Position numbers and translations under genes: made by a program. A model generated the notes under the pieces. The model worked only from the letters and a program-made list of their open reading frames with translations. It was not told where the DNA came from and ran no database searches. 64,000 nt of DNA from a virus: the IMG/VR virus record IMGVR_UViG_3300045988_089178; one strand, given 5' to 3'. Below are positions 8,982 through 63,630 of this stretch, one piece after another (within the stretch, counting starts at the first letter, position 1; the number at the start of each line of letters is the position of its first letter).

Positions 8982-9515
8982 ATGAAAAATAGTTGCACTG
9001 TTTATAATAAGAGCGCAGGTCGTGTTGTATATAGATTGCCTGAATTGGGCGTGCGCCGTATGTTTTACCCTGGAGAACACAAGGAACTTGAAGTATCTGA
9101 ACTAGAAAAGCTAGTACAAACGCCTGGAGGCCGCAAATTAATTTATAATTACTTACTTGTAGATGATAGAGAGATTGTTGAATATCTTATTAATGGTAGG
9201 GTTGAACCAGAGTATTGGATGAAAGAAGAAGAGATTGATTCTTGGATGAATACGTGTTCTTTAGATGAATTTAAGGATGCTCTTGATTTTGCTCCAGAAG
9301 GCACTAAAGATCTGATTAAATCCCATGCTATTTCCCTTCCTTTAAATGATATGTCTAAAAGAGATGCTTTGGAAAAACAATTAGGATTTAATGTTACTAA
9401 AGCATTAGAATTAACAGCAGATGATAAAAAGAATCCTAAGGAAGAGAAACCTGTAAGAAGAGTGTCAACTACAAGTGAGGATGCTCCAAAACGCAGAGTA
9501 GCTATTTCTGATTGA
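8982..9515 (+). CDS. hypothetical protein, no TAG
   Basis: Intact 177-aa track ORF with SD. Confidence 0.5.
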   Translation: MKNSCTVYNKSAGRVVYRLPELGVRRMFYPGEHKELEVSELEKLVQTPGGRKLIYNYLLVDDREIVEYLINGRVEPEYWMKEEEIDSWMNTCSLDEFKDALDFAPEGTKDLIKSHAISLPLNDMSKRDALEKQLGFNVTKALELTADDKKNPKEEKPVRRVSTTSEDAPKRRVAISD

Positions 9516-12665: not shown

Positions 12666-14057
12666 ATGCGTTTTGGTATTCGTGAGATTTGCGATGTAGT
12701 ACTTCGTGCCAAAAGCTATCAGACTTTAGGTAATCGTAAGTTCTATAAAAATGAACCAGTTTTGTACTTTGACACTTTAAGAACCTCTACTCTTGAAGGT
12801 GCTGCAACAACTGTATACGCACAGGGCGGACGTGGATATACTAGATTGATTGCTTGGGAAGGTGAGCGTACTCTAACATTTACAATGGAAGATGCTTTAC
12901 TTTCTCCAGAGAGCTTCTCTATTCTTTCTGGTGCAGGTCTGCTTGATGCAACAAAAGAAGCTCCAATTTACGTTCATCAAACTTCTCAGGTAGAAGTTGA
13001 AACAGCTAACACTATCGTGATTCCTGATAAAGCTTGCTGGAATGGATTTGCAGATCATGAAAATGAAATGTATCATCGTTCTGCTGACATTTTTGTAATG
13101 GTATTAGGAGATGATGGTCAAGTTAATGCTGAACCATGCATTCCTGTTTCTGTTTCTTATACAGAGGACGGAAAATCAACTTTAACTTGCTATTCTCATG
13201 CGGGAGTGCTCCCATCTGGTACTATCGTTTTAGTTGACTATTATGTAAAGCGCACTGGTGGCGCCCAGATGATTGAGATTACCGCTGATAAGTTTGGTGG
13301 AAATTATTATCTTGAAGCTTCTACTCTATTCCGCCGTGAGAGCGATGGCGTAGATATGCCTGCTGAATTTATTATTCCTAACTGTAAGGTTCAGAGTAAC
13401 TTCACATTCAGCATGGCTGCTAACGGTGATCCATCTACCTTTACATTCACAATGGACGCTTTCCCAGACTACACTAAGTTTGATCAAACTCATAAAGTTC
13501 TTGCCGCTATTCAGGTAATTACTGATGAAACTGGGGAAACCGAAGGATCTCGTGAGCCATGCTCTGAGAATGTTGGTACTTATGAGAGTGAAGCTGCTGA
13601 TGTAACTGTAAATTTTGTTTCTAACAGTGCCACAGAGGCGGAACTTGATGTAACTGGTACTGTAACAGGAAAGGCTTATGATACTGAGGCTTATGGAGAT
13701 ACAATTCCAGAAGCCGCACAAATTAGCCTCCAAATTCCAGTAGAGAGCGATAGTACCAAGTATACTGTAGTAACAACTAATCCAGCATATGAGAAATACT
13801 TCTCTACTGATGACCGTATTGAGGGCAATACAAAGACTCAAACCGTAGATGGCGCAGAATTGGCAGATGGCCTATTAGTAATTCTTACTAAGGAGAGTAA
13901 TACAACTCCTATTACAGCTAAGATTACTAAGATTAACGGAGACTTTGAGAAGAGTTATACTATTAATAACAAGCTCAGTTTTGCAGAAAGCACAAGCACT
14001 TATTCTGGCGCAAAAATGCGCAATAAGTTAGTCTCTGTTAGCGATGACACCATTTAA
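12666..14057 (+). CDS. major tail protein (tube or sheath-like, C-terminal Ig-like region); no TAG
   Basis: Intact 463-aa track ORF with strong SD; TAG-free inside a TAG-dense operon; followed by strong terminator; position between neck genes and tape measure. Confidence 0.5.
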   Translation: MRFGIREICDVVLRAKSYQTLGNRKFYKNEPVLYFDTLRTSTLEGAATTVYAQGGRGYTRLIAWEGERTLTFTMEDALLSPESFSILSGAGLLDATKEAPIYVHQTSQVEVETANTIVIPDKACWNGFADHENEMYHRSADIFVMVLGDDGQVNAEPCIPVSVSYTEDGKSTLTCYSHAGVLPSGTIVLVDYYVKRTGGAQMIEITADKFGGNYYLEASTLFRRESDGVDMPAEFIIPNCKVQSNFTFSMAANGDPSTFTFTMDAFPDYTKFDQTHKVLAAIQVITDETGETEGSREPCSENVGTYESEAADVTVNFVSNSATEAELDVTGTVTGKAYDTEAYGDTIPEAAQISLQIPVESDSTKYTVVTTNPAYEKYFSTDDRIEGNTKTQTVDGAELADGLLVILTKESNTTPITAKITKINGDFEKSYTINNKLSFAESTSTYSGAKMRNKLVSVSDDTI

Positions 14058-15624: not shown

Positions 15625-16164
15625 ATGAGTGAAATTACTTTTAAAGATTTGGGTTTGGAGCCTAAAATTAAATATACAGAAGTAAAAATTGGAGAAGATA
15701 AGATTTTATCTGTGGTTAATTATCTTCCGATTGCAGATAAAACAAATCTTATTACTTTTGTCGCAGATTTAGCGATAGATGAGATGACTGGGTGTTTTAG
15801 TCCGGTAAGAGTAGAAACTTATTTTGCTATTGCTATTTGCAGATGGTATGGTGGAATTGTTTTTGAGCAAGAAGATGTGCATGAAAATATTGCCAAAACT
15901 TATGATACACTAGAGACTAATGGTGTTATTGATGCAGTTAGAAGTGCTATTCCAGTAGATGAATTGTCTTTTATTGAAGACTTAGTTAGAGATACTTTAA
16001 GCGATATAGCAAGATATAATAACTCTGCCGCAGGCATTATCCAAATGATGAATAAAAATGCTTCTGGATTAGATACATATATTACTGATATAATGGAAAA
16101 AATTAAAAATGGTGAGAATCTTGAAACTTTATCAGTAATTAAAGATGTGGTTGGAAAAGATTAA
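15625..16164 (+). CDS. hypothetical protein, TAG-free, own promoter and terminator (moron-like; occupies tail-assembly-chaperone position upstream of tape measure)
   Basis: Intact 179-aa track ORF with SD AAAGGAG; flanked by the consensus promoter and a strong terminator. Confidence 0.6.
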   Translation: MSEITFKDLGLEPKIKYTEVKIGEDKILSVVNYLPIADKTNLITFVADLAIDEMTGCFSPVRVETYFAIAICRWYGGIVFEQEDVHENIAKTYDTLETNGVIDAVRSAIPVDELSFIEDLVRDTLSDIARYNNSAAGIIQMMNKNASGLDTYITDIMEKIKNGENLETLSVIKDVVGKD

Positions 16165-16269: not shown

Positions 16270-19200
16270 GTGGCTAATAATAGAAGATTAAATTATTAGA
16301 TTGGGTTTGATGTTGATACTGCTGAACTTTACAGAGCAGTAAACGAGGCAGTTCAATCTTTAAATAAAATCAGTGCCGGTTCTAAAGTTACAGCAGAATT
16401 GCGACAAGCTTCTTAGTCTGCGCTAGAGTTATCTACTTATATGCATTAGGCATTTAATCAAGGGACTGGAAAGTTAGATTTAGTAGCTTTTGAAAATAGT
16501 TTAAAATCTAGCGGAAGAACTCTTAAAGATTATGCCAACTCGTTAATTTCGATTGGTACCGAGGGGCAAAAGGCTTTTTTAAATGTAGCAACAGCGATTC
16601 AAAAAGCGGAGCTTCCAGCATTGCGCACTGGCAAAATATTTGATTAGTTATGGATTACTATGAAAAATACTATGAGATGGCAGATTACCTCCACCGCGTT
16701 AAATAGTTTTGTGGGAACCATAGAATCAGCTTATGGGTATGCACAAGATCTAAATGAATCATTAACAAATATTCGTATAGTTACTGAAAATTCTGCGGAA
16801 GACATGGCTAAATTTGCTCAATAGGCAAATGAAGCAGCAAAAGCATTAAGTACAACTACTGTTGAATATAGTGATGCTGCTTTGATTTATTATCAATAGG
16901 GTCTTACTGAATAGGAAGTTTTAGATAGAACTGAAACTACTATTAAAATGGCTAATGCCGCAGGAATTAGTGCATAGACCGCTTCGGATCAGCTGACCGC
17001 AGTTTGGAACAACTTCTATGATGGAAGTAAGAGTCTTGAATATTATGCTGATGTAATGGTGCGTTTAGGCGCCGATACAGCGTCTAGCTCTGATGAAATT
17101 TCAGAAGGTATCCAACAATTTGCCTCTGTAGCAGATACAGTTGGATTAAGTTACGAATATGCTGCTTCTGCTCTTGCTACTGTCACTGCTACGACACGTG
17201 AGTCTGCTAATGCAGTAGGTACAGCATTTAGAACTTTATTTGCTCGTATCCAAGGCTTAAATCTTGGAGAAACTCTCGATGATGGCACTACATTAAATAA
17301 ATATTCTAAAGCTCTTGAAAAAGTGGGTATTGATATTTTTGATGTTAATGGTGAGATTAAAACTATGGATACCTTACTTGATGAAATGGGTTCAAAATGG
17401 GAGACCTTATCTAATGACTAGTAGATTGCTTTGGCTTAGACCGTAGCCGGAGTTCGCCAATATACTCGTCTTATTGCACTTATGGATAATTGGGATTTCT
17501 TTTAGGAGAATTTAGCTAGTGCTTATGGAGCAGAGGGATCTCTTTAGGAACAGGCAGATATTTATGCTGAATCTTGGGAAGCTGCTAGAGATAGAGTAAA
17601 AGCATCTGCTGAGGATATTTATGATAGTGTCATAAATCCAGATTTGTATATAAATGCAGATAATGTCTTAACTCCATTTTTATCTGGTATTGCAGACGCC
17701 ATTGATGCAATGGGAGGGTTAAATGGTATTTTAGCTAGTACCGCTTTGTTGATTAATGGGATTTATGGAAATAAGATTGCTGAATCAATGCGTTCTATGG
17801 TGGCTAATATAAAAGTTCTATCTGGATTAGAGTAGAATAGAGCGAGAAATTTGTAGGCATCAGCGGCTGAGATAGCAACTCAATTAGGCTTAACAAACTC
17901 TATGTCTTAGGCTGAAAAAAATCTTTTTAATATTATGGTTGACTAGGCTAATATATAGGGCCAAATAAATAGTAACTACGACGCGATGGATGCTAATGGT
18001 CGTAGATTAATTTAGACAGAACAGTTAAAATTAAGTATTTTGCAAGATTAGTTAAAGACATATTCTTAGTAGTAGATTTAGTCTAGGGAAAATGTATTAA
18101 ATCTTAGAGATACTATTTATTTTAATATAGGAATAAAAGATGGCTGGCAAGAAGAAGTTAAAGCAGAAATAAATAAATTTAATAGTAGAAATAAAAGTAA
18201 TCAAATTTAGTTAAATATAAGAGCTAATAGTAACCTTGATAAAATTTATAATGATGTTACTACTTAGTTAACTAGTTTAATTTAGCAATCTACAAAACTT
18301 GATACAGTGTATCAAGAATTTAAAAAACTTGAAAGCGCTGGAACTGCGACTAGAGACAGCCTTCGTAATTTATTATCTAGTGTTACGGGCAAAGAACATA
18401 ATTATGCTTAGATTGAATGGCTGACTTAGCAATTAGAGGGGTTAAAAAATTAGTCTCAAAATGCAAAATTGCAAATTCGTGAACTTGGGACTATTTTATA
18501 GACTATGGGAGCCGATCCAAGAGTAGTTACTTCTTATATTAATGAATTAACAAAATTGGAGTCTGTTACTGCAAGAACAACTGAACAAGAGGCTCGATAT
18601 TAGGAATTGTTAGCGAAGTTCCCTAGTGTAATTACAAAAGCATTAATACCAACGAGAGATTGGGCTACAATATTGGTTTAGGTTGGAAGTTCTCTTTCTA
18701 GTTTAACTATGATTATGAATGCTTTTTAGAGCATTGGAAGAATTTTTTCTGATGAAGATATGACTTCAACTGAAAGAATTGTAGCTTTGTTTACTTCTCT
18801 TGGTATGTTACTACCCTCTATTATTTCTGTTTATAAAACTTTAAATATGTTAACTACTGCTCATGCTGTTGCAGCAGCGGCGGACGCCGCGGCAACATCA
18901 GTAGAGGCTTTAGCGACAGAATAGCTTGCTATGGCGAAGCAGAAAGCCGCTATGGCTTCCGGCATCTTAACTGCTGCAATTATGGTAGCAATAATAGCGA
19001 TTACTGCAATAACAAGTGCTATAAAAGCATAGCATGAAGCAACCTTGGCTGCTGCTTAGGCCTCTATTGATGCGGCAAATGCAAAAAAAGAAGAAGCACA
19101 AGCGAATAGAGAGTTAATTCAATCTACTCAAAATGCCTTATCTACTTATCAAGAAACTGGGGATGGAAAAGAAGAGTTAGATGATTTAACTCGTTAGTTG

Positions 19201-22200
19201 GCTGAAGCGTATGATTTAGAAGGCAGTGCATTAGCTAGACTAAGTGGATAGTATGAAGATTATAATAGTGTTTTAAAAGCTGCTCAAGAAGCTCAAAGAA
19301 GAGAACTTTAGGAAACTTTGTAGTCCCAAGAAGAAGCGTTACGTGCGAATGAAACTCTCATTCTTGAAACCGCGAGAGAGGGCGTGGGCCACGTATATTT
19401 TGGTGGAAATTATGAGGGGTCTTTTACTGGTTTTAATGATTTTTGGAATGGCACCGAAGAAGATACTGCATCTAATATTCTTCTCAATAATGTGGACGCT
19501 TTATATAGTAGTTGGAATGACAATGTAATTGGCGGAAGAAGAAACTTAGCTTTTTCTATAGACCCAAATAATACAGAAGAATTAATTAATTTTTATGATC
19601 AATTAAATAATGCTATTAATTTGATGAATAATAGCATGACTGTTTCGGAAAGAGGAGCATCTGGACTTTACAATGCTGCTGTTGAGTGGCGAGATAAAAT
19701 GGAAGAGGTTGTCACTCAATATAAAGAAACTAAAGAGAGTATAAATGCTATTCGGGTATAGCTTGGAGAGTTTAATAATTAGACTATTACCGATGATCAA
19801 GTATCAAGTTTAGCGTAGTATAAAATTTGGGTTAACGAAGTTACAGAGGCGCTCACTTCTGCTGGATATGAAGGCGAAGAATTAAACGATATAATCAATG
19901 ATTTAGTATCTACTTCTCTGAATCCTGATATTAGTGGCTTTAAAGATATTTATGACGCAATTTTAGAGGTTGAAGAATTAGTCAATGATGAAGAATTAAA
20001 AAGTAATCTTGAATCTATTTTTACAGATGAAAATTATGATACTTCTGTATTAAATTTATTAAATTGGGGTGCTTTAACATAGGAGACTTTTTAGGATGCC
20101 TATGACAGTGCTAAAAAATATACTGATGCTATTTCCGAAGTTGAAAACGCAACAGAATCTTTAACTACTGCACAATCTGCCTTAGAAACTCTTGGAGATA
20201 GAGATTTAGATCGAGAAGGATTAGAATCACTTTCTAAAACTGTTGATTGGGGAAATCAAGAAAAAGGAATTATTGATTTTAATTAGTTCCTTGCTATGAC
20301 TTTAGTTGAACAATAGAGTTATTTATAGAGGATTATAAATGAGTCCTATTAGGCTGTCAATAATGGATTAATAGATTAGATTAGTGAAGCAAAAAAGAGA
20401 ATAACTGAGCAATAGGATATTTTAAATCAATATAGCGATTCTGAATTAGAACGTGCAGAAAAAGTTGTTTATGCTTGGGAACAAGTTCGAGAAGCGTATA
20501 ATGATTATCAAGGTAGCTTAAATGGCGGAGAAGAATTTAATCTTGATAATTATACGATTGATTGGGATTTGTTAGGTGAAAATTTTGATTGGGAATCTTT
20601 TAAAACCGAAACTGCGGATAACGTAGCTAGTGCATTTGAGTATGGGACAAAAGAAGCTCAAGATAAAATTGATACTGTAACTTTAGCAGAGTAGCTAATT
20701 AGTAGTTTATAGGATGATATAGATTCTAGCACAGCTTAGTTACAAATAAATGCAGAATTAAATTTTTAGAATCAATTAGATTAGATTGAAAATTCCGTTG
20801 ACGGAATTGTAAGTGTATTCGATGCTATTTCTGATGGAGTAAGCTAGACTACCAATGAAGCTGGAGAACAAGTTTGGAGTTTTAGTAGAGAAGCAGCTAA
20901 GGCTATTGAATCTATCTATCCAGGTTTTATAGCTAACGCGGAATTATTAAGGGATGGTACATTTGCTTTAACAGATGAGATGTATCAAGCATTTTATAAT
21001 AGTTCTTAGGGGCAATTAGCTGTTGATGCTGATACCAAATCTAATATGCTTCAAAATCTTATTTCTCTTTTAGAGGCTAAACGAGGAGAGGCTGAAGCTT
21101 CGCTTAAGATCGCTGATCAGCTAGCTTCTGGAGAATTAACTATAAACGAATTATCAGATGAGCAGAAGAGAACTTTATTAGCGGGATATGTAAATGCTTA
21201 GAATCTTGCTAATGGAGAAATGTTAGATGATTAGGTCAATAGTTTAACCGCACAAGATACAAATTAGTAGACTTTATGGACTAATGTTAGCGAGTATTCT
21301 GCTTAGGGCGCGCAGAACATGAGTACTAATGTATAGTTAAATACTCAAAATGTTCTTGCTAATCTTGAAAAAATTAGAGATGCGGCATATGCTACTGGAA
21401 TTCAAGTATCTCAAATAGGAACTGATAATGTTACTAAGCAAGATTTTGATACTTCTGCTGTTTCTTTTGATAGTTCGGCTGCAACAACAATAGATACGAG
21501 TAACGCTAATGATTTCTTAAATTCTTTAACTGCAAATTTAGATGTAGAACCTGTAACCGCAGACGATTTAAATATTTATGGTGATGCTAGTGAGGCACTT
21601 GAAGCTAAGCAATCTTAGGCAGTTGGAGAAGCGCTAAGGGCCATTTATTAGGGGAGTATTGATGGGTATAATGAGGCTATAGCAGCAGCAAAAATAGCCT
21701 AGAGCAAATTATTAGATTCTATTGATGGAGCTATAGAAGGGGTAAAGGGAAGTTCAAGTGGCGGAGATAATGAAGGCACTAAGTATGACGAAGAAGATGA
21801 AAAGACTCTAAAGGATATTGAAGATAGATACCATGAAATAACTCGCGAAATTGAGAATTAGAACGATTTATTAGATGATATTGGAAATAATATAGATAGA
21901 GCCTATGGCGCCAATAAACTTCAAGCATACTAGAGAGAACTTCAAGAATTAGAGAAATAGCAAGCTAATTATAACAAACTACTTAATGAAGCTGAAACTT
22001 ATCTTACAAAAGACTAGGCAGATCTTCAAGGGTTGTTTAATAATTCTCTTATTTTTGATGAAAATGGAGAAATTGAAGGTTATCAAAGTGTTCTTCAATC
22101 TATAATAGATGATTATAATAATAATTTCTTGGCAGATTATAATGCTTTTTTAGTTACCTTTAGTAATCTTACTAAAGATGAATAGGAAGCTAGATAGGCA

Positions 22201-24996
22201 GAATATGATAGTTGGCAGTTACAAAAGGAAGCTGCTGATGAATTATTCCAAGCTCGTTAGGATGCTCTCGCCCAATATGAAGAAACTCTTGACAAAATTC
22301 AAGAAGTAAAGGATGAATAGGAAGAACTAGAGAGAAGCATCGCAGACAATAGATTGAGCTAGATTGAATATAAACTTGAAGTTGTAATAGAAATAAAAGA
22401 TGCTAAAGATGCTGTTCGTGAATTAACTAAAAAGATTGCAGAATCATTTGGCGATGAATTAACTCATGGTATTGAAGTCGCTCGTATTGATGAAAATAGT
22501 GTGAACGAAAATATAAAAATAATCAAGGATTATGAAGAAACACTTAAAAGTTATCAAGAAGAATTGGCTAACGCAACGGATGCGACTGATATTGATGGAA
22601 TTATAAGTAAAATATCTGATTTATAGGGTAAAATAATTTCTACCGCAGAAGCTCTACTTGATTGGGTAGAGGGTCTTGAAGAAATGTTGCCAAATGCATT
22701 AGACGCTGCATCTGAAAGATTCGCTGAATTTACTGATCAACTTGACCATAATGAATCAGTTCTTGGACTTATAAAAGAATTGTATACACTTTAGGGGGTT
22801 ACATATAAAACCGAAGAAGGATTTGAATAGCTCCAAAAAGTAAGCGAAGAAACAATGAAAGCTCAAATAGCAAATGCGCAGTTAAATAAATAGTGGTACG
22901 ACGGTATTAAATAGGAACTTTTAGAAGCTTAGAGTGCGTTAGATGCGTTAGACGGCGATGAAACAGATCCGGCATATGATGGTTTAAAAGCTAATCGAGA
23001 TGCATTATTAGAAGAATATAATGAAGCTCAATAGGCGATGTTAAGTTCCGCGCAAGCCGCTATGGAAACTGCACAAGAGATGTATACTTAGGCTATTGAA
23101 AGAGCCGTATACGAATTTGGATAGGCGGTTTCTGGCGGAGTTGGCTTAGATTTGCTACAAGACAAGTTCGATCATTATATTGAGCAAGAAGATAGATATT
23201 TAGATAAAGTAAATGAAGCATATGAAGTATCTTCTTGGTATAATAAACTTCAATAGGATATTGATAAAGCCACTAATTCTAAAATGAAAGATTAGTTGAA
23301 ATAGTTACAAGAAGAAATTGATATTCGTAGAGAGAATAATACTTTATCTGAATATGATCTAGAAATTCTTGAAGCTAAGTATAATGTTCTTTAGGCTTAG
23401 ATGGCTCTTGAAGATGCTCAAAATGCAAAGAATCAACTTAGATTAGTAAGAGATAGTCAAGGTAATTGGAATTATCAATATACCGCAGATGCGAGTTAGA
23501 TAGCAGATGCGGAATAGAATTTACTTGATGCAGAGAATGAATGGTATAATATAGCTAAACAATAGGTTGAAGATGTTACTGGAGAAATTATTTCTACTTG
23601 GCAGGAATGTCAGGATAAAATAAAAGAGATTTATTCTGATATGACCTTGACTGATGAGGAAAGATCTGCCCGCGCGCAAGAAATCTATTCTTATTATACG
23701 CAGAAGGTTAAGGATCTAGAGAACGAAAAACAGATCGCTATTTAGGATATGACCGAAGCCGGTAATAAAGCCTTAATTGATATGGCTATTGTTGCGGGAG
23801 ACGAGGTAAGTGATCTAACTGGAATTACAAGTCAAGAAATTCAGGATATTATAGCCAACTCTGGCTCTAGTATTATTGATTTGTTATTATCCGATAATGA
23901 ATAGATTCAAGATATAGTTGGAAGTAATACAAAACTTATTGATTTATTTGATAATGTTTTTGCAAAAGATCTTGCTAATATGACTTCTAATGCTGGAAAT
24001 TTTGAAGATTTTCTATCTAAAGCCATGGACGAAGCAAGTGAAGCAATGGAAGATTATCAAACTACTGTCTCTGGAGTGGCTGATTAGACTGGAACAAGCC
24101 TTGATGATTTAGAAGGTTATCTTGATGATGTTACAACTTCTACAGAGTTATGTTCTGATGCGGGATCAGAAGCTGTCACTTAGATGTTAGAATAGATAAG
24201 CACTATTCAAGATTTAAGTCAAGAATATTTAGACATGGCTGAATCAGTTAGAGAATATATAAGGGCTCTTGAGGAGGCTGCTAGAGCAGCTGGAAATACA
24301 ATAGAAAGCGCTGGAGGAATAGATAAAGATGATTTACCTCCCGCTAATTCAGATCAATCTTCTGATAATAACTCTAGCAATAGTAATAGCGGATCTTCCA
24401 GTGGAGGGGCTGGAAGTGGCAATGGAATCCCAGAAGTAGGAGACGAAGTCATTTATACTGGTGGAACTTATTATCATGATTCTTATGGCACAGATCCAGC
24501 AGGTAGACGTGGACCCGGTAAGAAAGTTAAAATAACTAATATAGCTAAAGGCAGACCATATCCGATTCATGTATAGTCTAATAATTCTGCATATGGCTGG
24601 TTAAAAGAAAGTCAAATAAGCGGATTTGATACAGGAGGTTATACTGGAGAATTTGATAATGCTAAATTAGCTTTCTTACACGAAAAAGAGTTAGTTTTAA
24701 ATCAAGAAGATACGAAAAATATTCTCGCGGCGGTTTCTGCTATAAGAGCTTTTGAACCTAGTTTTATAGCTTCTATAGAGAAAGCGCTTGATGGAAATGC
24801 ACTATCTATTTCTAATCTTATGGCATCAAGATTAGGATCTAATACTTAGATTACTCCAGCAGATAACACAGTTGAACCGTATATAAATATTGAGCGAGTT
24901 GAGTTCCCAAATGCGACATCTTCTGATGAAATTCAAGATGCTATTCGTAGTTTAGCTGATGATGCTACTCAATGGGCAAATAGAAGAAAGGGATAA
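16270..24996 (+). CDS. tail tape measure protein, about 2908 codons, with roughly 150-250 in-frame TAG
   Basis: Track ORFs 17056-17421, 17644-17835, 19384-19761 and 24235-24576 all lie in one frame that stays open from GTG 16270 (SD AAAGGAGG) to TAA 24994-24996 when TAG is sense. Ala/Gln/Glu-rich coiled-coil composition with a hydrophobic segment near 18.8-19.0 kb; 12 TAG in a sampled 160-codon stretch. Confidence 0.65.
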
Positions 24997-37446: not shown

Positions 37447-38229
37447 ATGGCTTTATTTAAGATTTTTCGAGGACCAGAAGATAATTTGAATAGTGTACCT
37501 CTTCATGAAGGATACGCTTATTTCACAGAAGATAAAGGAAATCTCTTTATTGATATTAGTAATGAAGAAGGTGGGCGTTTGCAGGTAAATGCCTATGCTG
37601 CTCAAGTTCTAAAGAATGATATTACTGAGATTGATATTGATGATATTTTTCTTAAAAATATGACTGCCACTGTAGCTCAGGGCGGAACTGGACATAATAG
37701 TCTAACTGTAAATGCTTTATTAATTGGTAATGGAACTAATGCGGTAAAGATGGTTGAAATTGCGGCCGGTTAGGTTGTTATCGGAAATAACGAGAATGGT
37801 GTAACAGGATTGCAAGGAACTGGCGCTTTATTTGCCGCTACAGCTGGCGCTCCGCAATTTGGAACGCTTCCAATTTCAGTTGGTGGAACTGGGGCAATTA
37901 ATGCAGCAGGGGCGAGAACTAATTTAGATGTGTATAGCAAATTGGAAACAGATAACTAGATTAGTGGAAGTACTACGGCAGCTTATCCAGCAACTCTTTC
38001 TGCATCAGGTTGGGTATTAAATGAAGATATGTATACATATACTTATTCCAATACTTCTTTAACTTGCGGAAAAGCAGGTAATGTGCCACCTATTATTAGT
38101 TATACTTCTAATCTTGAAGAGTATAGTAAAATTGATCACGCTGATGCATCAGTTGGGGTTGGAATTACCTTTTATACAAAAGAAAAACCAACAAATGATA
38201 TTGCTATTATTATCATTGATGTAAAATAA
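37447..38229 (+). CDS. tail fibre protein (conserved MALFKIFRG N-terminus; PISVGGTGAINAAGARTNLDVY motif), 2 in-frame TAG
   Basis: SD AAAGGAGGG plus ATG 37447; track ORFs 37447-37773 and 38029-38229 are in the same frame; stop TAA 38227-38229. Confidence 0.6.
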
Positions 38230-38277
38230 AAAAAATGGGGAGAACCTTGAAATTAAGGTTCTCCCCATTTTTTTTAT
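38226..38277. terminator. bidirectional rho-independent terminator between convergent + and - operons
   Basis: A-run, 12-bp stem ATGGGGAGAACC/GGTTCTCCCCAT, T-run. Overlaps TAA of the + gene (38227-38229) and TAA of the - gene (38274-38276). Confidence 0.75.
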
Positions 38278-38732
38278 TTCTCGCAAGGAGGTTTACTATA
38301 TAAATGATAATGCGGTTTTTCTTCTCCAAACCATTTCCATCTTAGGTAGTCGTCTAATACTATTGCCAAAAGGCTTAAAAAGAACCAGGCGATAGAGAAT
38401 GGTAAACAAATCTACCCCATAAAATTCAATGGAACGTGAGAATAATCCCAAATACCTAAGCCTAGTTTTACATTTAATACTAGACCAAAGATTAATTCTA
38501 AAGCAGTTATGATTAAAGAGCCTTTTACTCCTTGAGTAAGAATAGATTCTTCCCAAAGAACGTTCTCATTCATTAGTCCTATTAATAAAAAGCATAAGCC
38601 GCCCAATAAGAACATAGACCAATGACAAGTTCCAAAGCTGATAAAAGTTTTATAGAGGAACTCTATACCGTAATATAGAGTTCCTCCAACTGCAAATAGA
38701 ATTATATTTTTACTCACTGTCGGTATCTTCAT
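38274..38732 (-). CDS. multi-pass membrane protein (about 4 TM), 1 in-frame TAG at 38412-38414
   Basis: Track ORF 38412-38732 (MKIPTVSKNIILFAVGG...) continues through TAG to TAA 38274-38276; last gene of the DGR-containing - strand operon. Confidence 0.45.
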
Positions 38733-39372
38733 AGTTTAATTCAATAGCTTTTAATTTATCTATTGAATCAGCTTCGAATATCTAAGTTTTATATTCTTGC
38801 ATTAAATGATATTTGGGATATACCACATTTAAAATAGCTAAACTTAGAGCGGATAATTGCTCTAAACTCCATGGCACACATTCTTCGTGTCGAGCGTGCC
38901 ACTCAAGCGTAGGATTTTCTACTTCAGCCGCGAGAGCGACTTGATATTGATTGAGATTTAAGCTAATCTCAGACTGGTCCTCCTACGTAATTCCATATTC
39001 TTTTCCATCAACCCAAGTTAGTGGGTGGGTAGCAAGATACTCTGCGAATAGTTTCTTGTTTTCCTCTTGTTTGTCATACTTTGCCTAATCTAAATCAGAA
39101 GTGAATGTTCCATCTTCTTGATTATATATTGAATAATTAGGAGTAACATCTGATGGAATTGTTTCTATCTCTAATACTTTTACAGCATTAGATTGATTTA
39201 ATACATCGGCTTTAATTAGAGTATAATGTGTATCTCCATTTGAGCCGATAACCCCAGTTCCCTCTTCTTCCTCGCAGGCAACGACAATACCATTTGAGGA
39301 TTGCAGTTTAATGTAACGTGCTTCTGAAAGAATATCAACTACTACATTCTCTCTATTTAATAGAATATACAT
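38713..39372 (-). CDS. hypothetical protein, 3 in-frame TAG
   Basis: SD AAAGGAG plus ATG 39372 forming a TAATG overlap with the extended RT stop; track ORF 39085-39372 continues through TAG 39085-39087 to TAA 38713-38715. Confidence 0.4.
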
Positions 39373-40589
39373 TACTTTATTTCAACTCCTTTAAATAATG
39401 AACGAAAATAATTGTCCATATCTTGAATTATATAAAAACAAGTTCCTTTAGAAATATGTGCCCTCCAACCTTGATAGGATTTCTAAATTTCATCTGTTGA
39501 AATTTTACCCTCTAGCCATAGCGCTTGCATTTTCTTTAACTTTCTGCGCTAATGAGCCACTTTCTTTTTAAAAGGAATTTGTATTATATGATTAGTGTCT
39601 GTGAGATAAAAGTTCCACTTTAAGTATTTTAATGGAGCGTGACGTTTGCCGTCCGCGTGAATAGGAGAGATTCTAGTAATAGTAGTCTTTTTCTTATTCA
39701 TCTTTAATCCTTGCTTATTTAAGCGAACTTCTATTCTCTTTTCACATTCGGCTAAGTATTGACTGTCATTGTGGAATAAATATAAATCATCCATATAACG
39801 ACCATAATACTTAATATGTAACTCTTCTTTGATGAAGTGGTCAATTTCGTTCAATGCTAGCAATGCGAATAATTGTGATGTTTGACTTCCTAATCCAAGA
39901 CTTTTATTATCATATTCATAGTATTTGCGGCCAGGCTTGAAATTAGTGGTATTAATTCTCGTGTATTTGTGCCGTTTACTAATATAATAATCTTTCCCTG
40001 GTATGGGAGAGGAATCTTTTGTTAGCTTAAAAGAAAATGTATCTATTAAATAACAGCATAGCTGATAAATTCTTTTATCTTTTATCAAACGTTTAGCCGC
40101 TTTCTTTAAAGATTTATGGTCAATAGAATCAAAATATTTTTGAATATCAATTCTTAACCCATAAAAATCTTTTCCTAATCCATATTCTCTATGAGCTTGT
40201 TGAAGGTGTTTCTTTACTCTTTTTAAAGCAAAGTCTATTCCTTTTCCTCTTAAAGTCGCACAATTATCGTAGATAAATCTAGGAGTTAATTCTGGTAATA
40301 AAACTTGTTCACATAACGCATTTTGTACCAGTCTGTCGTTGATATGACACGCTCTTATGTCTCTTGGTTTGCCTCGTTCGATTATCGAAAAACAACTAAA
40401 CACAAGCTATTCGTATTCACACGCTCGCAGATCAGCTTCTGTTTTTAAAATTGTTTCTATCCTATTCTCTTCAAAATTAATTGTACTATCTTTCCATCGA
40501 ACGTTTCGACATACCTTATAAGACGCATCATACATAGCGTCAAAACTACAAAAACGCTCGAAAGCAGTATCTTGGTTTATTTCAGACAT
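39372..40589 (-). CDS. diversity-generating retroelement reverse transcriptase. Contains an internal TAG (40407-40409) and a TAG at 39549-39551 that, if read through, extends the protein 58 aa to TAA 39372-39374
   Basis: RT motifs: KPRDIRACHINDRLVQNAL (motif 1), FIYDNCATLRGKGIDFAL (motif 2), GSQTSQLFALLALNEIDHF (motif B), YGRYMDDLYLF (motif C, YxDD). Track ORFs 40407-40589 and 39549-40403 share a frame and are split only by TAG. SD AAGGAG before ATG 40589. Immediately downstream of the TR. Confidence 0.85.
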
Positions 40590-40895
40590 ACTTTCTCCTT
40601 ATCATGTAGCTATAGTGGTAGCTACTCGAGCTCCACGTCTACAGTCTTACTTTATCCACTTTTTCAGTGAAATGGTTAAGTTCTCCTTAGATGAAAAGGC
40701 AGATCTACCTATAGTATATTATTCGATAGTTGTAGAGCAAAGCTCTTTAACGGTCTCTCAATCTCTTCCCCACATAGTGGGTGCAATCCAGAGTAAACCT
40801 TAATTAGATGGATAATAATATACTCCGGGGTACTATTTAGGCGTTGCTCGTTTGCGCTGCTCCGCAGCTTAACTCGCAACATGATAGCTCCATCT

Positions 40896-40998
40896 AAGCC
40901 GGCGCCAGCCCGTTGCTGTTGTTGTAGTTGTTGTTGTTCGCAGATCCATCGTTGTTGACATTGCAAACGTTGTTCGAGTTGTTGTAGTTACGGGACCG
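40896..40998 (-). repeat. DGR template repeat (TR), about 103 bp, AAC-rich on the - (sense) strand; non-coding
   Basis: Matches 41619-41721 at 88-90 of about 101-103 positions; every mismatch sits where the TR has A on the - strand. In the VR reading frame it reads RSRNYNNSNNVCNVNNDGSANNNNYNNSNGLAP (13 AAC codons); lies between avd and RT. Confidence 0.85.
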
Positions 40999-41028
40999 AA
41001 AGATACAGAACTTAACCGCAGAAAAATA

Positions 41029-41523
41029 TTATCGACCTCTCCTATGGGTTTTAGGAGCCGAATATCTATGCTCGACTATAAGTTTATCTCTATTTTTTCT
41101 ATCTTGGATTGATTCTTTTACTTTCTTAGTCAATCTAGCTAGATGTTCAAAAGATCTTCTTTTCTTTTTGCTGTTTTGAGCATACTAATAAATACATAGG
41201 TCGATTTGTCGAAATATACTATCACAATATTCAATCGCTTTATTGTGATATTCATTTCTTTTTGTAAGGGTTTCTTTATCTTTTAAGTTTATCTTACACG
41301 CCTCATAGCAGCAAGCATGTATACCCTTTCCGCATTTAATTATATCGTACCCGAACGCTTGAAGAGGTTGACCCTCTCCAAGCAGTCCAGGTTTGCAGAT
41401 TTGTTTTCCATCCTTATCAAATTCTCTAGGACGAGTTAAGACTAAAATGTAGCCAACCAATTCACGGGCTTTATAAAGACAGTCTTGTTTTGATAGGTGT
41501 CTATCCTTTACTTTTACAGACAT
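41029..41523 (-). CDS. avd: DGR accessory variability determinant (Avd-like small basic helical protein). 112 aa to TAG 41185-41187, or 164 aa if TAG is read through to TAA 41029-41031
   Basis: Small basic ORF (track 41185-41523) located between target-VR and TR exactly as in canonical DGRs. The extension ends 31 nt before the TR. Confidence 0.6.
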
Positions 41524-41604
41524 TTAAAATTTCCCTCACTTGAATATATAATTTTTTTATTGGACAATTTAACCTTAACTGTCCCGAATTGTTATTTTGC
41601 TGTA

Positions 41605-43362
41605 TTATCCAATGACGAAAGCCGGCGCCAGCCCGTGGCTGTTGTAGTAGTAGATGTTGTTCGCAGACCCATCGCTGTAGACAAAGCAAACGTAGACCGA
41701 GTTGTTGTAGTAACGGGACCGTTCCCAATACCACATCGTTGAACTCGTCAACGAACCATTGGCGTTCATCTGGTATTTAACTCTAGTAGAGTTACTTGTA
41801 TAGTAACTATAGGCCGTCTAACTTCCTCCAACAGTCCACTCCTAATAAGAACTAGCATAGCCGCTAGAGCTAGTAAATCCCATCTCACATTCAGAAGGTA
41901 GCCAACATTTTGCAGTTGTTTGAACATCCGCAGTATTATTCTAATTACCATTACTAGCAGAACTTGTCTTCTTAGTAACAGATTTAATAGAAGCGGTTGC
42001 GCTACATCTATTACCAAAGTCATTGCATAAGGATTGAGCGGTTGAACCATTCCATAACGCGTTACTACCAAATGTTGTAGTATTAGGTAAAGTTCCCGCA
42101 GTCTGGAAAGTTAATGTTCCAGTTCCGTCCTAATCAGCGCCAATACAAATCATTGTAGCGGCGTTGGCGCCAAGTACCGCACTAGAAAGACTTACAAGTT
42201 TCTTTTTACCTACACATTTCTTTCTTTCACTGGAAGAAGCCTTAGCTGCCCAAGTCTTTAATCCAGCCCACCACTTAGTATCACCAGTAGCAGTTTCAGA
42301 ACCCCACTCCCAATAGCTTGCTGTTACAGTAACAGTTTTGTTACCTGGAGCAGTATGGTTAGTTCCAGCCGCGACTTTAATAGTAATCGTGGTAGAAGAA
42401 ATAGCCGTACTGCCATCACCTTTAATAGTAAGAATATTACCACTTAAAGAGAGGGTAAGACCGGTAACACTAGTTGGAGTATAGCTAATAGCTCCATCTC
42501 CCGCGCGAGTAATAGTAACTTTAACGCCAGCATTATAATTATCTCCATCAAGAGCAACAGAAGTTGGATTTACAGTTAAACTACCCGCGGCTTTATTAAT
42601 AATCCAGTTTACATCAAAGTTATCGGTTGTCTTATCAGCCCATCTATAATTGCTCTTTAGAGTAAATGTAGCTGTATAAGTTCCTGCATTAGTAGCGGAA
42701 GTAGTTCCGCCAATCGTCATATAAGTGGTATTGAAATTATTCCAATAAGAAGTTCCACTTACTGATTGACTATTACCTGTATAGGTAAGATTACTTTTCC
42801 AGGTTGGTTTAGCGACAGATTTACGCTCAACAGTTACCGTAAATTTCGCAGATTGAGTTACTTCATTCTCTGTATAAGAAACAGTAATTTGCTAGCTGCC
42901 AACTGTAGTTAAGGATGTTGGTGAGCACGTATAACCTGTAACAGCCGCGCTTTTACTATCAGAGTAACTTGCTGTAACTACCATTCCTGTTGTTTGAAGA
43001 GTGTCGCCATATTCATAGGTCATCTTAGTTGGATTAGTAATAATCTAAATACTAAGAAGTTTATGAATAACAGTTACCTTCTAGGTAGTTTGACAAGTTT
43101 CACCGAGTTCTGAATAAGTAATAGTTACTTCAGTAACTCCATCTGTTAAAGGACTGGGAGTAACTTGATATCCAGTTACTTCTGCTGTTGTTACAATAAC
43201 GCCATCCACGCCGTAAGATGCGGTAACTACCATTCCAGCAGGATTAAATGTGTCACCAGCAAGATAGCTTGTTTTATTAGGGGGAGTGGTTACTTCAATT
43301 TTTACAAGAGAAAGAGAGCCTCCACCTTTTCCACCCTACTCAGCTAAAATACATTTAGGCAA
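41605..43362 (-). CDS. DGR target protein, about 585 aa. N-terminal tandem bacterial Ig-like repeats (xTYxYGDTLxTTGMVVTASY), C-terminal C-type-lectin/FGE-like fold (CWLPSECE motif) ending in the VR; 8 in-frame TAG
   Basis: SD AAGGAGG plus TTG 43362. Single frame open to TAA 41605-41607 when TAG is sense; track ORF 42130-42720 is an internal fragment in the same frame as the VR. Confidence 0.7.
41619..41721 (-). repeat. DGR variable repeat (VR) at the 3' end of the target gene
   Basis: Near-identical to the TR except at 13 (14 counting the boundary) positions, all corresponding to TR adenines (sense strand). Encodes RSRYYNNSVYVCFVYSDGSANNIYYYNSHGLAPAF, 14 codons before the target stop. Shared GC-rich 3' end CGGGCTGGCGCCGGC (IMH-like). 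Confidence 0.85.
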
Positions 43363-45026: not shown

Positions 45027-45734
<708 letters not shown>

Positions 45735-46204: not shown

Positions 46205-46270
46205 TTTTATACTAAAATTGGCAAAAATTTTGGCAAAATAGTAAAATTATCTTTGCCAAAATTTTATATA
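46205..46270. promoter_or_regulatory. second cluster of TTGGCAAAA / TTGCCAAAATTTT motifs downstream of the holin-like gene
   Basis: TTGGCAAAAATTTTGGCAAAAT at 46217-46238 and TTGCCAAAATTTT at 46253-46265; related to the 45040-45100 cluster in direct and inverted orientation. Confidence 0.4.
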
Positions 46271-49798: not shown

Positions 49799-50065
49799 TT
49801 AAATTCCCTCAACTGTAATTTTACTATTTGAATACATATTTTTTTCCAAATCATTTACAAGTTTATTGATTTCTCCTGTTATTGCAAAAGGAGCATGAAC
49901 TTGTATACTATATATTCCATTTCCATAAGCAATTCCTACAAGCGCTTCAGCTAATCCATTAATATCAGAGCATACTTTCATTTGTTTTTGTAGTCCATCA
50001 TCAACAACATATACAGCAGATTCCATAGCAAATGGATCATAATTTACAATAATAGCATTTGTCAT
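49799..50065 (-). CDS. hypothetical protein
   Basis: Intact track ORF. Confidence 0.45.
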   Translation of the reverse strand: MTNAIIVNYDPFAMESAVYVVDDGLQKQMKVCSDINGLAEALVGIAYGNGIYSIQVHAPFAITGEINKLVNDLEKNMYSNSKITVEGI

Positions 50066-50067
50066 AC

Positions 50068-50406
50068 CTATATCACCCCTTTTGTATAATCAAAGAACGC
50101 ATACATATCACATTTCTCTCCATGTAAAATCCAAATTTCTACAATATTTCCATTTATTTCTATTGCCTTGATTTCTCCAAGTGTCTTAGAAACAGAAATA
50201 ATCTCGCTTGCCATTTTATTTTTATTTACATCGTTTTCATAGGTAAATAAAGTAAAATATTTATTATCGTGATTAAGCATCATATAATATCTAGAATCAT
50301 TGGAATCTAAGAATGTGATAATATTTTCTTTAGCTTTCTCTAATTCAGCCTTCGTCATTTTTGGAAGGGAGGCATATCCCGCTTGATTTAGCTCGTATAA
50401 AGTCAT
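50068..50406 (-). CDS. hypothetical protein
   Basis: Intact track ORF with SD AATGGAGGA. Confidence 0.45.
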   Translation of the reverse strand: MTLYELNQAGYASLPKMTKAELEKAKENIITFLDSNDSRYYMMLNHDNKYFTLFTYENDVNKNKMASEIISVSKTLGEIKAIEINGNIVEIWILHGEKCDMYAFFDYTKGVI

Positions 50407-62249: not shown

Positions 62250-62534
62250 TTAATCACTCTCCTTATTATGTGATAATCCAGTTCCTTTGCAAGCTCTACA
62301 TTTTATATAGTCATTAAGATCGTTTGGATCTGGCCTATCATCTTCCGCGCAAGATCTAGATCTTAAAACATGACCAGTTCCGTTACAGTACTCACATGCT
62401 TGATTAATTTCTCTAAGTTTCTCTAAACTGTCAAAATAGGGTTGTATTCTCTTATTATAATCATCTGCTAATTTTCCTATTTCTTTTTCTATTGCTCTAA
62501 TAGCAGGCACTAGATTTAAAATCTCTTTACTCAT
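62250..62534 (-). CDS. hypothetical zinc-ribbon protein (two CxxC pairs)
   Basis: Intact track ORF; stop TAA. Confidence 0.45.
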   Translation of the reverse strand: MSKEILNLVPAIRAIEKEIGKLADDYNKRIQPYFDSLEKLREINQACEYCNGTGHVLRSRSCAEDDRPDPNDLNDYIKCRACKGTGLSHNKESD

Positions 62535-63630
62535 AAGGAATTATCCTTTCATTTAGTAACTCTTCAAAAATCTGCGGTCCCTTGTCTATAGGACTTGCTT
62601 TATATGGCAAAATCATTCGTTTATCAAAGATAGCAGATATGCGTACATTCTTACTATATTTGTTATATATATGAATTAACTTTGCTTTCAATCTTTTAAA
62701 TTCATCGTCGCTAATTTCGACAAATTGTCTATCAAAAGCAACTATGATTTCATTAACTCCTAAAGATTTGAGTAAATCTATATGATAACTAGATATACTA
62801 CTTCCACAACAAGCTACAGATATATCATTATCGTACCCATAGTAAGACTGATACATAAGACAACTCTTTTCAGATTCAAATATAATTGCAGCTTTTACTT
62901 TTCTTATATTCTCTTTGCTATGGTTTAAATTATATAAATTCATACTTAAAGGATGATTATATAATTGTCTGTTCACCATAAGAGGTCTATATTTTCCGTA
63001 TCTTTCTGCATCTTCAGAAGATAATGTTCTTCCCCTAATTCCTACTAATCTATTATTAATATCAAAGTGAGGAATTGTTATTTGTCCTCCTCCCGGATAA
63101 TACCCAATAAAATTTCTTTTACTAACTTCGGGTAAGATTCCTTCTGCTTCCCATCCAGCAATTCTAGGATAAGAAAATCGAGTAAGAATAATCGGATTAT
63201 ATTCCTTCAAGCAAATAGGCTGTTTAGGTTTTGGTAACTGAATATTATGTCTTTTAAAGATATCCCAATCTTCTAATTCTTTTTCTTCATCTTCTAGTTC
63301 TATTCCATCAAAACCAAAATATCCAGCTATATAATCCATAGCATTATATAGTTCCCACTTTTTACCTTCTTGCTTTTTTTTAACCTTTATACATAAATCA
63401 AATATATCAAAAGTAGGATCTATACATCCAGTATAACATCTAAAAAGTTTTGTATTTTCGTAATAATATAACTTTCTTGATCCCTCTCCTGGAAGATTAT
63501 GACATATAGTTTGGGAGATGAGCCCACCATCTACATATTCAGGCTCACCGCCCCATGCTTCAATTAAATCATAAATTTGTTCTAACTCTAATTTTCCTTT
63601 TAGTTCATCTTTATCATAATAGCGTGACAT
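62527..63630 (-). CDS. DNA primase (zinc-binding CHNL...CYTGC plus Toprim-like region), no TAG
   Basis: Intact 367-aa track ORF; position adjacent to the helicase/RecJ/polymerase genes. Confidence 0.55.
   Translation of the reverse strand: MSRYYDKDELKGKLELEQIYDLIEAWGGEPEYVDGGLISQTICHNLPGEGSRKLYYYENTKLFRCYTGCIDPTFDIFDLCIKVKKKQEGKKWELYNAMDYIAGYFGFDGIELEDEEKELEDWDIFKRHNIQLPKPKQPICLKEYNPIILTRFSYPRIAGWEAEGILPEVSKRNFIGYYPGGGQITIPHFDINNRLVGIRGRTLSSEDAERYGKYRPLMVNRQLYNHPLSMNLYNLNHSKENIRKVKAAIIFESEKSCLMYQSYYGYDNDISVACCGSSISSYHIDLLKSLGVNEIIVAFDRQFVEISDDEFKRLKAKLIHIYNKYSKNVRISAIFDKRMILPYKASPIDKGPQIFEELLNERIIPYE

What the first reader, a model, noticed from the sequence alone, without database searches (positions are those of the whole stretch)
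39372..43362. All three DGR proteins need amber read-through: a suppressor-gated retroelement
The RT reading frame contains an internal TAG (40407-40409), 60 codons after its start. Its apparent terminal TAG (39549-39551) continues in frame for 58 more codons to TAA 39372-39374, whose final A is the A of the next gene's ATG (TAATG coupling), arguing that the extended form is the real one. Avd likewise ends on TAG (41185-41187) and continues 52 codons (basic tail YAQNSKKKEDLFEHLARLTKKVKESIQDRKNRDKLIVEHRYSAPKTHRRGR) to TAA 41029-41031, placing its stop 31 nt from the TR as in canonical DGRs. The target gene has 8 in-frame TAGs, including ones inside the CLec domain just upstream of the VR. Without the suppressor, none of the three proteins can be made full length. 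So mutagenic homing and target expression would be confined to the infection phase when amber suppression is active. Alternatively, partial suppression could give short and long RT/Avd isoforms. I have not seen a DGR with these properties characterised mechanistically.
Basis: inference. Interest (0 to 1): 0.85.

Follow-up and report, generated by a model that had tools for sequence, protein, structure and literature searches.

The report
Working DGR in a TAG-recoded phage
This is a normal, active diversity-generating retroelement in a gut phage that reads TAG as glutamine across its whole genome, so the in-frame TAGs are ordinary sense codons and not a switch specific to the retroelement.

Summary
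The sequence facts are right. The RT (39372-40589, minus strand), the Avd-like gene (41029-41523) and the target gene (41605-43362) are open only if TAG is read through. The long forms are the real proteins.

The DGR is not special in this respect. 45 of 55 ORFs in the window carry in-frame TAG (368 in all), including DNA polymerase III alpha, NrdD, a helicase and a 2908-codon ORF with 101 TAGs. Every ORF ends in TAA or TGA.

In relatives, the window's TAG codons align with CAA or CAG, so TAG means Gln (code 15). A standard-code relative has the same cassette with uninterrupted RT, Avd and target of the long lengths, and Gln at all three RT positions. TAG positions drift between lineages. RT and Avd use TAG less than the structural genes do.

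Eight near-identical contigs carry eight different VRs, and the differences fall at TR adenines, so the element works in nature.

The window has no suppressor tRNA. A Gln-like tRNA(CUA) lies near a large tRNA array in near-identical contigs.

DGRs with TAG-interrupted RTs in recoded gut phages were already reported in 2023 and 2025.

Verdict: a new member of a known kind, of low interest.

The parts
41605..43362 (-). DGR target gene. 585 codons from TTG 43362 (GGAGG lies 8 nt upstream), stop TAA 41605-41607. Big_3 Ig-like repeats followed by a C-terminal DUF6273 / C-type-lectin-fold domain. 8 in-frame TAGs at 43336-8, 43081-3, 43045-7, 42892-4, 42130-2, 41941-3, 41842-4 and 41818-20.
41619..41721 (-). 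Variable region (VR), the last 103 nt of homology at the 3' end of the target gene.
   Evidence: 87% identical to the TR, and all 13 mismatches are at TR adenines. It is the only VR for this TR in the window. It differs between near-identical contigs at TR-adenine positions.
41562..41584 (-). Weak 8-bp stem-loop about 20 nt downstream of the target stop codon. It could be the VR-proximal hairpin, but the evidence is not significant.
   Evidence: DNA fold -3.5 kcal/mol, z = -1.74. Any function is inference only.
41029..41523 (-). Avd-like accessory gene. 164 codons, one in-frame TAG at 41185-41187 (codon 113), stop TAA 41029-41031.
40896..40998 (-). Template region (TR).
   Evidence: Essentially invariant (0-2 changes) in eight related contigs while the VRs differ.
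40590..40895 (-). Non-coding spacer between the TR and the RT gene. By analogy with the BPP-1 DGR RNA it is presumed to be part of the TR-containing RNA.
   Evidence: No credible ORF and no Rfam hit. The function is inferred.
39372..40589 (-). DGR reverse transcriptase. 405 codons, in-frame TAGs at 40407-9 (codon 61), 39549-51 (codon 347) and 39483-5 (codon 369), stop TAA 39372-39374 overlapping the next ATG.
   Evidence: RVT_1 1.4e-16. phrog_1423 covers residues 8-399. The best solved relative is the DGR RT 8ub7_A. The GxxxSQ motif is G234-S238-Q239. In 31 relatives the TAG codons align with CAG/CAA.
38710..39372 (-). 220-codon gene translationally coupled to the RT (weak DUF4376 match). 3 in-frame TAGs. 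Its place in the cassette is conserved.
   Evidence: the same gene follows the RT in the standard-code relative.
38274..38732 (-). 152-codon membrane protein (PF06541-like), 1 TAG, the last gene of the minus-strand operon.
38228..38275 (.). Bidirectional terminator-like hairpin (20 bp) where the plus-strand structural block and the minus-strand DGR operon converge.
   Evidence: (I1).

Best explanation
The window comes from a roughly 140-146 kb tailed gut phage with an SPbeta/phAss-like replication module. It uses genetic code 15, in which TAG means Gln, throughout its genome.

The DGR is a conventional, active cassette on the minus strand: target, Avd, TR, RT and two small genes. It sits inside the tail-fibre region. 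Its in-frame TAGs are ordinary glutamine codons that accumulated by drift after the lineage changed code.

During infection the phage supplies a Gln-like tRNA(CUA), encoded outside this window near a large tRNA array. That tRNA lets ribosomes read TAG in almost all phage genes, the replication enzymes included. Full-length RT (405 aa) and Avd (164 aa, a four-helix bundle) are then made. They copy the TR RNA with adenine-specific errors, and the cDNA replaces the VR in the C-type-lectin-fold tip of the tail protein.

Dependence on the suppressor is therefore real, but the DGR shares it with the whole phage. It is not a control specific to the DGR.

Shown here: genome-wide recoding, TAG = Gln by alignment, the long forms, DGR activity in nature, and the existence of a tRNA(CUA) in near-identical genomes.

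Inferred: that the host uses the standard code, the timing of expression, the RT-Avd biochemistry, and that the window's own genome carries the tRNA(CUA).
For: Genome-wide recoding. ORF coverage rises from 0.455 to 1.17 when TAG is treated as sense, and the longest ORF goes from 752 to 2913 codons. There are 368 in-frame TAGs in 45 of 55 ORFs. All ORFs stop at TAA (42) or TGA (13). TAG makes up 40% of Gln-type codons. Pol III alpha, NrdD, a helicase and a RecJ-like gene contain TAG.

TAG = Gln. In 31 related RT genes, codon 61 is TAG 16, CAG 11, CAA 3. Codon 347 is TAG 25, CAA/CAG 5. Codon 369 is TAG 5, CAG/CAA 23. In some relatives the catalytic GxxxSQ glutamines are themselves TAG. Gln is by far the commonest partner of TAG columns in Avd and the target.

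Long forms are real. Nineteen RT homologues and 20 of the 22 aligned Avd sequences align end to end with the long forms, with conserved extensions. Standard-code phage RTs align to residues 8-403. The standard-code relative L036 has uninterrupted RT (418 aa), Avd (154 aa) and target (594 aa), with Q at all three RT positions. The Avd extension is helix 4.

The DGR is active. Eight contigs with 91-100% identical RTs have eight different VRs. 135 of 138 differences are at TR adenines, and the TR is constant.

Suppressor. A tRNA(CUA) is found at L154:10433-10507 and L157:8046-8121 (ARAGORN; Rfam 59.3 bits). Its acceptor stem and G73 resemble the phage's own tRNA-Gln(UUG). L157 is 99.5% and L154 97.3% identical to the overlapping part of a contig whose RT is 98% identical to the window's.

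Literature. TAG to Gln has been confirmed by proteomics in crAss-like phages (PMC9523058). Recoded DGR RTs whose VRs changed over 3 years are reported in bioRxiv 10.1101/2023.08.07.552389.
Against: - There is no proteomic or ribosome-profiling evidence for this phage.
- The tRNA(CUA) was seen in related contigs, not in the window's own genome. One related contig (L156) lacks that segment.
- RT and Avd use TAG significantly less than the structural genes do (15% versus 49% of Gln-type codons, p = 0.0005). The DGR genes are therefore not a random sample of the genome. Their TAG use resembles that of the replication genes, which might reflect expression timing.
- RT codon 347 is TAG in 25 of 31 relatives. 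This could hint at selection, but those sequences are phylogenetically clustered.
- The host and its genetic code are unknown.
Confidence: 0.9

Rival explanations
1. Selected gating specific to the DGR. On this view the TAG codons in RT, Avd and the target are kept because they confine mutagenic homing to the phase when, or the cells where, amber suppression is on.
For: All three proteins do need TAG decoding. RT codon 347 is TAG in 25 of 31 relatives. The general idea that recoding times late-gene expression is an established hypothesis (bioRxiv 10.1101/2021.08.26.457843; PMC9523058).
Against: - Replication enzymes also need TAG decoding, so the DGR is gated no later than DNA replication.
- RT and Avd are depleted in TAG, not enriched.
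- TAG number and position vary freely between lineages. The target has 8 TAGs here and 0-1 in a sister clade.
- A standard-code relative runs the same cassette with no TAGs in Avd or the target and none within the standard-code RT ORF.
Confidence: 0.07
2. Partial suppression produces functional short and long isoforms of RT and Avd.
For: Natural suppression is rarely 100% efficient, so some termination products are likely to exist (general knowledge).
Against: - Termination at RT codon 61 leaves a 60-aa peptide without the RT domain. Residues 3-60 align with the N-terminus of the 8ub7_A DGR RT, so the true start lies upstream of that TAG.
- Termination at codon 347 removes a C-terminal segment that is among the most conserved.
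- Avd cut at codon 113 lacks helix 4 of the bundle.
- The only 112-aa database entries end exactly at the TAG and look like code-11 gene-calling artefacts.
Confidence: 0.02
3. The TAGs are genuine stops, and the cassette is a decaying, non-functional DGR.
For: Under the standard code all three genes are fragmented.
Against: Only TAG interrupts the frames, never TAA or TGA, over 405, 164 and 585 codons (P about 5e-10 for the RT alone). The same pattern holds genome-wide. The VRs are diversifying at TR adenines between near-identical genomes.
Confidence: 0.01
4. TAG is decoded as an amino acid other than Gln, for example pyrrolysine or Tyr.
For: ARAGORN labels the CUA tRNA 'tRNA-Pyl' from its anticodon alone. 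At some positions TAG aligns with E, K or others.
Against: Gln is the dominant partner (216 of 581 non-TAG codons in RT TAG columns), and it is the partner at invariant Q positions such as the SQ motif. The tRNA shares its acceptor stem and G73 with the phage tRNA-Gln(UUG). No Pyl machinery was seen. Proteomics in other code-15 phages shows Gln (PMC9523058).
Confidence: 0.02

Closest known systems
DGRs of TAG-recoded persistent infant-gut phages (Lou et al., bioRxiv 10.1101/2023.08.07.552389)
   Same: [quoted passage not shown] The VR changes over time, so the recoded DGR is active.
   Different: It is a different RT lineage: the RT sequence printed in that paper is unrelated in detail to this one. 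No Avd is described there. Here a recoded Avd is present as well, and a standard-code sister genome allows a direct comparison.
[quoted passage not shown]
   Same: That paper reports amber suppression in 7 of 18 DGR RT genes, C-type-lectin tail-fibre targets and tRNA-Sup(CTA) genes, and notes that recoding hampers DGR detection.
   Different: This phage is not a member of Crassvirales. It has a Pol III alpha, DnaB, YorF and YorH (SPbeta-like) replication module. Most Zeta DGRs lack Avd.
Bordetella phage BPP-1 DGR (bRT-Avd, Mtd), the canonical DGR
   Same: Gene order of target, Avd, TR, RT. Adenine-specific TR/VR differences. The VR lies at the C-terminus of a C-type-lectin-fold receptor-binding protein. 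The RT's best solved-structure match is 8ub7_A, and the Avd fold matches 8ub7_B and 4dwl.
   Different: BPP-1 uses the standard code. The Avd here is longer (164 versus about 128 aa) and has no sequence-level match to Avd families. The target carries Big_3 repeats and DUF6273.
phAss-1-like / code-15 gut phages (PMC10607447; Borges et al., bioRxiv 10.1101/2021.08.26.457843)
   Same: A genome of about 136-146 kb, Pol III alpha, many tRNAs, tRNA-Sup(CTA), and TAG to Gln in structural genes and some DNA-processing genes. Related Enterococcus EF1-type phages are the nearest cultured hits.
   Different: No DGR is reported in the phAss-1 paper. No close nucleotide match was found in the phage collection.

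Membership tests
Diversity-generating retroelement (DGR) | Reverse transcriptase of the DGR clade with the [I/L]GxxxSQ motif | tested here: met
   RVT_1. The profile's best PDB hit is the DGR RT 8ub7_A, E = 1.3e-17. G234...S238-Q239 are invariant.
Diversity-generating retroelement (DGR) | A TR/VR repeat pair that differs only at TR adenines | tested here: met
   13 of 13 mismatches are at TR adenines. 135 of 138 are across 8 contigs.
Diversity-generating retroelement (DGR) | VR at the 3' end of a target gene, within a C-type-lectin (or Ig) fold | tested here: met
   The VR ends 11 nt before the stop codon. The C-terminal domain model (pLDDT 94.4) matches C-type lectin domains and TvpA.
Diversity-generating retroelement (DGR) | Accessory Avd four-helix-bundle protein next to the TR | tested here: met
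Diversity-generating retroelement (DGR) | IMH-type GC-rich 3' end of the VR/TR plus a downstream hairpin | tested here: inconclusive
   The GC-rich end ACGGGCTGGCGCCGGCTT is shared by VR and TR. In relatives the TR differs from the VR by one base there. The downstream hairpin is weak, z = -1.74.
Diversity-generating retroelement (DGR) | Ongoing mutagenic homing | tested here: met
   There are eight different VRs and a constant TR among near-identical contigs. This is population evidence, not an experiment.
Genetic code 15 (TAG to Gln) phage | In-frame TAG in many conserved genes, with ORFs restored when TAG is read as sense and all genes ending in TAA or TGA | tested here: met
Genetic code 15 (TAG to Gln) phage | TAG positions align with Gln codons in homologues | tested here: met
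Genetic code 15 (TAG to Gln) phage | Phage-encoded suppressor tRNA(CUA) | tested here: inconclusive
   None in the window. One is present in near-identical contigs L154 and L157. It was not shown on the window's own genome, and contig L156 lacks that segment.
Genetic code 15 (TAG to Gln) phage | Peptides with Gln at TAG positions | not testable with these tools
   This needs proteomics. It has been shown for crAss-like phages in PMC9523058.
   TAG share of Gln-type codons: RT+Avd 15%, target 44%, structural genes 49%, replication genes 13%.
   Counts vary: RT 1-11 (3 here; the 1 in L036 lies upstream of the standard-code ORF), Avd 0-6, target 0-8. A standard-code relative has no TAG in Avd or the target and none within the RT coding sequence.

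The most novel reading that the evidence does not exclude
Dependence on the phage's tRNA(CUA) may have a real biological consequence for the DGR. RT and Avd would be made only in cells where the phage's code switch is active. The retroelement would then be silent in any non-productive, carrier or abortive state. It would also be unusable after transfer into standard-code genomes. That would amount to a built-in containment of a mutagenic reverse transcriptase, and selection might favour keeping a few TAGs, such as RT codon 347.
Probability: 0.1. Interest if true: 0.5.

Novelty: new member of a known kind. Interest (0 to 1): 0.2.

Why it matters
The main value is practical. Gene callers using the standard code split this RT, Avd and target into fragments, so DGR surveys will miss or mis-size such elements. 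Translating with code 15 recovers a complete and evidently active DGR in a very common gut phage lineage.

The recoded genome and its standard-code sister, which carry the same cassette, form a natural pair for asking whether recoding changes DGR behaviour. The finding does not reveal a new regulatory principle. The dependence on amber decoding is shared by almost every gene of the phage and is already documented for other recoded phages.

Tried and rejected
- Pfam, PHROGs and a PDB profile search gave no sequence-level hit for the Avd-like protein. Its identity rests on predicted fold and gene position.
- Megablast of the DGR region against 50,697 phage records found nothing. Distant blastn with the Pol III alpha gene found only short matches to Enterococcus and Staphylococcus SPbeta-like phages.
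Database proteins had to stand in for them.
- ARAGORN found no tRNA in the window or in about 30 kb of flanks.
- A tRNA with a 55-nt insertion in its anticodon arm, next to the two tRNA-Gln genes (L153:1418-1534), was considered as the suppressor. It was rejected because it contains no CUA anticodon.
- No HDV-like or theta ribozyme was found beside the suppressor.
- The hairpin downstream of the VR is not statistically supported.
- The hypothesis that the recoding separates a standard-code 'early' set from a recoded 'late' set was rejected as a clean rule. Replication genes, and genes around the tRNA array, also carry TAG.


Full report
**Observation**

On the minus strand, the RT frame 39372-40589 is 405 codons long. 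It has in-frame TAGs at 40407-40409 (codon 61), 39549-39551 (codon 347) and 39483-39485 (codon 369). The frame ends at TAA 39372-39374, and base 39372 is shared with the ATG of the next gene.

The Avd-like frame 41029-41523 is 164 codons long, with one TAG at 41185-41187 (codon 113).

The target gene, counted from TTG 43362 to TAA 41605-41607, has 585 codons and 8 in-frame TAGs.

The DGR is genuine. TR 40896-40998 and VR 41619-41721 are 87% identical, and all 13 mismatches are at TR adenines. No other VR for this TR exists in the window.

TAA or TGA occurs at 0.052 per codon over all frames. Frames of 405 or 585 codons interrupted only by TAG are therefore not chance.

**The whole window is recoded, not just the DGR**

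Treating TAG as sense raises stop-to-stop ORF coverage from 0.455 to 1.17. The longest ORF grows from 752 to 2913 codons.

Of 55 ORFs, 45 contain in-frame TAG, 368 in total. One 2908-codon ORF has 101. All ORFs end in TAA (42) or TGA (13).

The replication genes carry TAG too. Pol III alpha has one at codon 742, NrdD at codon 304, a RecD-like helicase at codon 215, and a RecJ-like gene has 13.

TAG's share of Gln-type codons is 49% in the structural block and 44% in the DGR target. It is only 15% in RT plus Avd, similar to the replication block at 13%. RT plus Avd differ from the structural genes with Fisher p = 0.0005. The DGR enzymes are therefore TAG-poor rather than TAG-rich.

**TAG means glutamine, and the long forms are the real proteins**

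The protein database holds hundreds of full-length relatives, with RTs of about 400-410 aa and Avds of 164 aa. Their alignments run end to end, and both extensions are strongly conserved: YQGWRAH...DMDNYFxSLFKGVEI in the RT, and KKKRxSFxxLARLT...QDRxNRDxLI in Avd.

I checked this at the DNA level in 31 distinct related RT genes from IMG/VR.
- Window codon 61 aligns with TAG 16, CAG 11, CAA 3.
- Codon 347 aligns with TAG 25, CAA/CAG 5.
- Codon 369 aligns with TAG 5, CAG/CAA 23.
- In some relatives the glutamines of the catalytic GxxxSQ motif (codons 236 and 239) are themselves TAG.

RTs from standard-code phages, such as Roseburia phage Shimadzu and Faecalibacterium phages, align to residues 8-403. 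The PHROG RT family covers residues 8-399. The DGR RT 8ub7_A aligns from residue 3, which places the true start upstream of the first TAG.

The most direct evidence is locus L036. This is a 137.7 kb relative with 65% RT identity, and it uses the standard code: its coding density is 0.91 under either code. It carries the same cassette with uninterrupted ORFs: target 594 aa, Avd 154 aa, RT 418 aa, and the same coupled downstream gene. It has Gln at all three positions where the window's RT has TAG.

The target's C-terminal domain model (pLDDT 94.4) matches C-type lectin domains and the DGR variable protein TvpA.

**The element works**

Eight contigs whose RTs are 91-100% identical to the window's carry eight different VRs, and they contain in-frame TAGs in RT where this was examined. 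Their TRs differ by 0-2 bases. Of the 138 VR/TR differences, 135 are at TR adenines, and two of the other three are mirrored in that contig's own TR. Full-length RT and Avd must therefore be produced in nature.

**No sign of DGR-specific gating**

TAG numbers and positions drift between lineages. In the clade with 77% RT identity, the RT has 8-11 TAGs and Avd 5-6, but the target has 0-1. Here the counts are 3, 1 and 8. The standard-code relative has none within these genes.

The replication enzymes also need TAG decoding. Suppression must therefore be active at least by the time of DNA replication. Recoding cannot confine the DGR to a later phase than that. This step is inference.

**The suppressor**

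The window has no tRNA. I walked outwards through near-identical contigs and found an array of at least 30 tRNAs plus a tmRNA roughly 25-36 kb from the window start.

About 6 kb beyond the array lies a tRNA with anticodon CUA, at L154:10433-10507 and L157:8046-8121. Rfam scores it at 59.3 bits. Its acceptor stem and G73 discriminator resemble the phage's own tRNA-Gln(UUG).

L157 is 99.5% and L154 97.3% identical to the overlapping part of an IMG/VR contig whose RT is 98% identical to the window's. I could not show the tRNA on the window's own genome. One related contig (L156) lacks that segment.

**Literature**

- The idea that recoding times phage gene expression comes from Borges et al. (bioRxiv 10.1101/2021.08.26.457843).
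- TAG to Gln was confirmed by proteomics in crAss-like phages (PMC9523058).
- Lou et al. (bioRxiv 10.1101/2023.08.07.552389) describe DGRs in three TAG-recoded persistent gut phages. Their RTs have multiple in-frame TAG codons, the targets are recoded tail proteins, and the VRs changed over three years.
- The Zeta crAss-like paper (PMC12386605) reports amber suppression in seven DGR RT genes.
- The phAss-1 group (PMC10607447) resembles this phage in size, in having Pol III alpha, and in its tRNA-Sup(CTA) genes, but no DGR was reported there.

**Verdict**

This is a canonical, active DGR in a code-15 phage, so it is a new member of a known kind. Its main value is practical (annotation, DGR detection) and as a natural recoded versus standard-code pair.

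Noticed in passing
window 45063-45734 (+), with inverted repeats 45041-45066 / 46211-46236: A serine DNA invertase (phrog_125, E = 4e-53, 6 in-frame TAGs) lies beside the tail-fibre/DGR region. Its gene and the next ORF are bracketed by a 26-nt, 88% inverted repeat. This may be an invertible segment, which would be a second host-range switch next to the DGR.
   Followed up: partly
L036 (IMGVR_UViG_3300045988_145614, 137,669 bp), whole 21 kb locus: A standard-code relative of this phage (coding density 0.91 under both codes) has the same DGR cassette and tail genes with no in-frame TAG. This suggests a code change between related lineages.
   Followed up: partly
L152:4773-13455, L153:1144-6904, L154:836-11547 (related contigs, outside the window): An array of at least 30 tRNA genes includes a phage-encoded tmRNA (L152:11915-12245, 70.9 bits; L153:3902-4222, 76.8 bits). 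The amber suppressor tRNA(CUA) lies about 6 kb beyond the array, between tRNA-Ser(UGA) and tRNA-Leu(CAA).
   Followed up: partly
L153:1418-1534 (-): This is a tRNA-like gene (Rfam 49.8 bits) with normal acceptor, D and T arms but a 55-nt insertion in the anticodon arm. It sits directly after the tRNA-Gln(UUG)/tRNA-Gln(CUG) pair. ARAGORN missed it, and no CUA anticodon or clean intron boundary could be found.
   Followed up: partly
L152:8428-8485 (+): A twister-P1-like ribozyme match (51.7 bits, below the gathering score of 67.2) lies immediately 5' of tRNA-Ser(GCU) in the phage tRNA array.
   Followed up: no
L156 versus L157 and L160: One related ENA contig joins the end of the tRNA array directly to the GyrB/GyrA/ligase region. 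It skips the segment that carries the suppressor tRNA in L154 and L157, yet it still has ORFs with in-frame TAG. The cause could be structural variation or a misassembly. It is unexplained.
   Followed up: partly
window 7156-7845, 8982-9515, 12666-14057, 15625-16164 (+); 62527-63630 (-): A few genes have no TAG at all: a virion structural protein (phrog_2729), three other ORFs in the structural block, and the primase. The putative major-capsid-size gene 7865-8917 has only one. This may reflect avoidance of TAG in the most highly expressed or earliest genes.
   Followed up: no
window 16270-24996 (+): A single 2908-codon ORF with 101 in-frame TAGs sits in the structural block. It is far larger than a usual tape-measure protein.
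   Followed up: no
window 50062-50406 (-): This ORF has a TAG at its penultimate codon, followed one codon later by TGA. It may be a case where TAG still acts as a stop, with a back-up stop just behind it.
   Followed up: no
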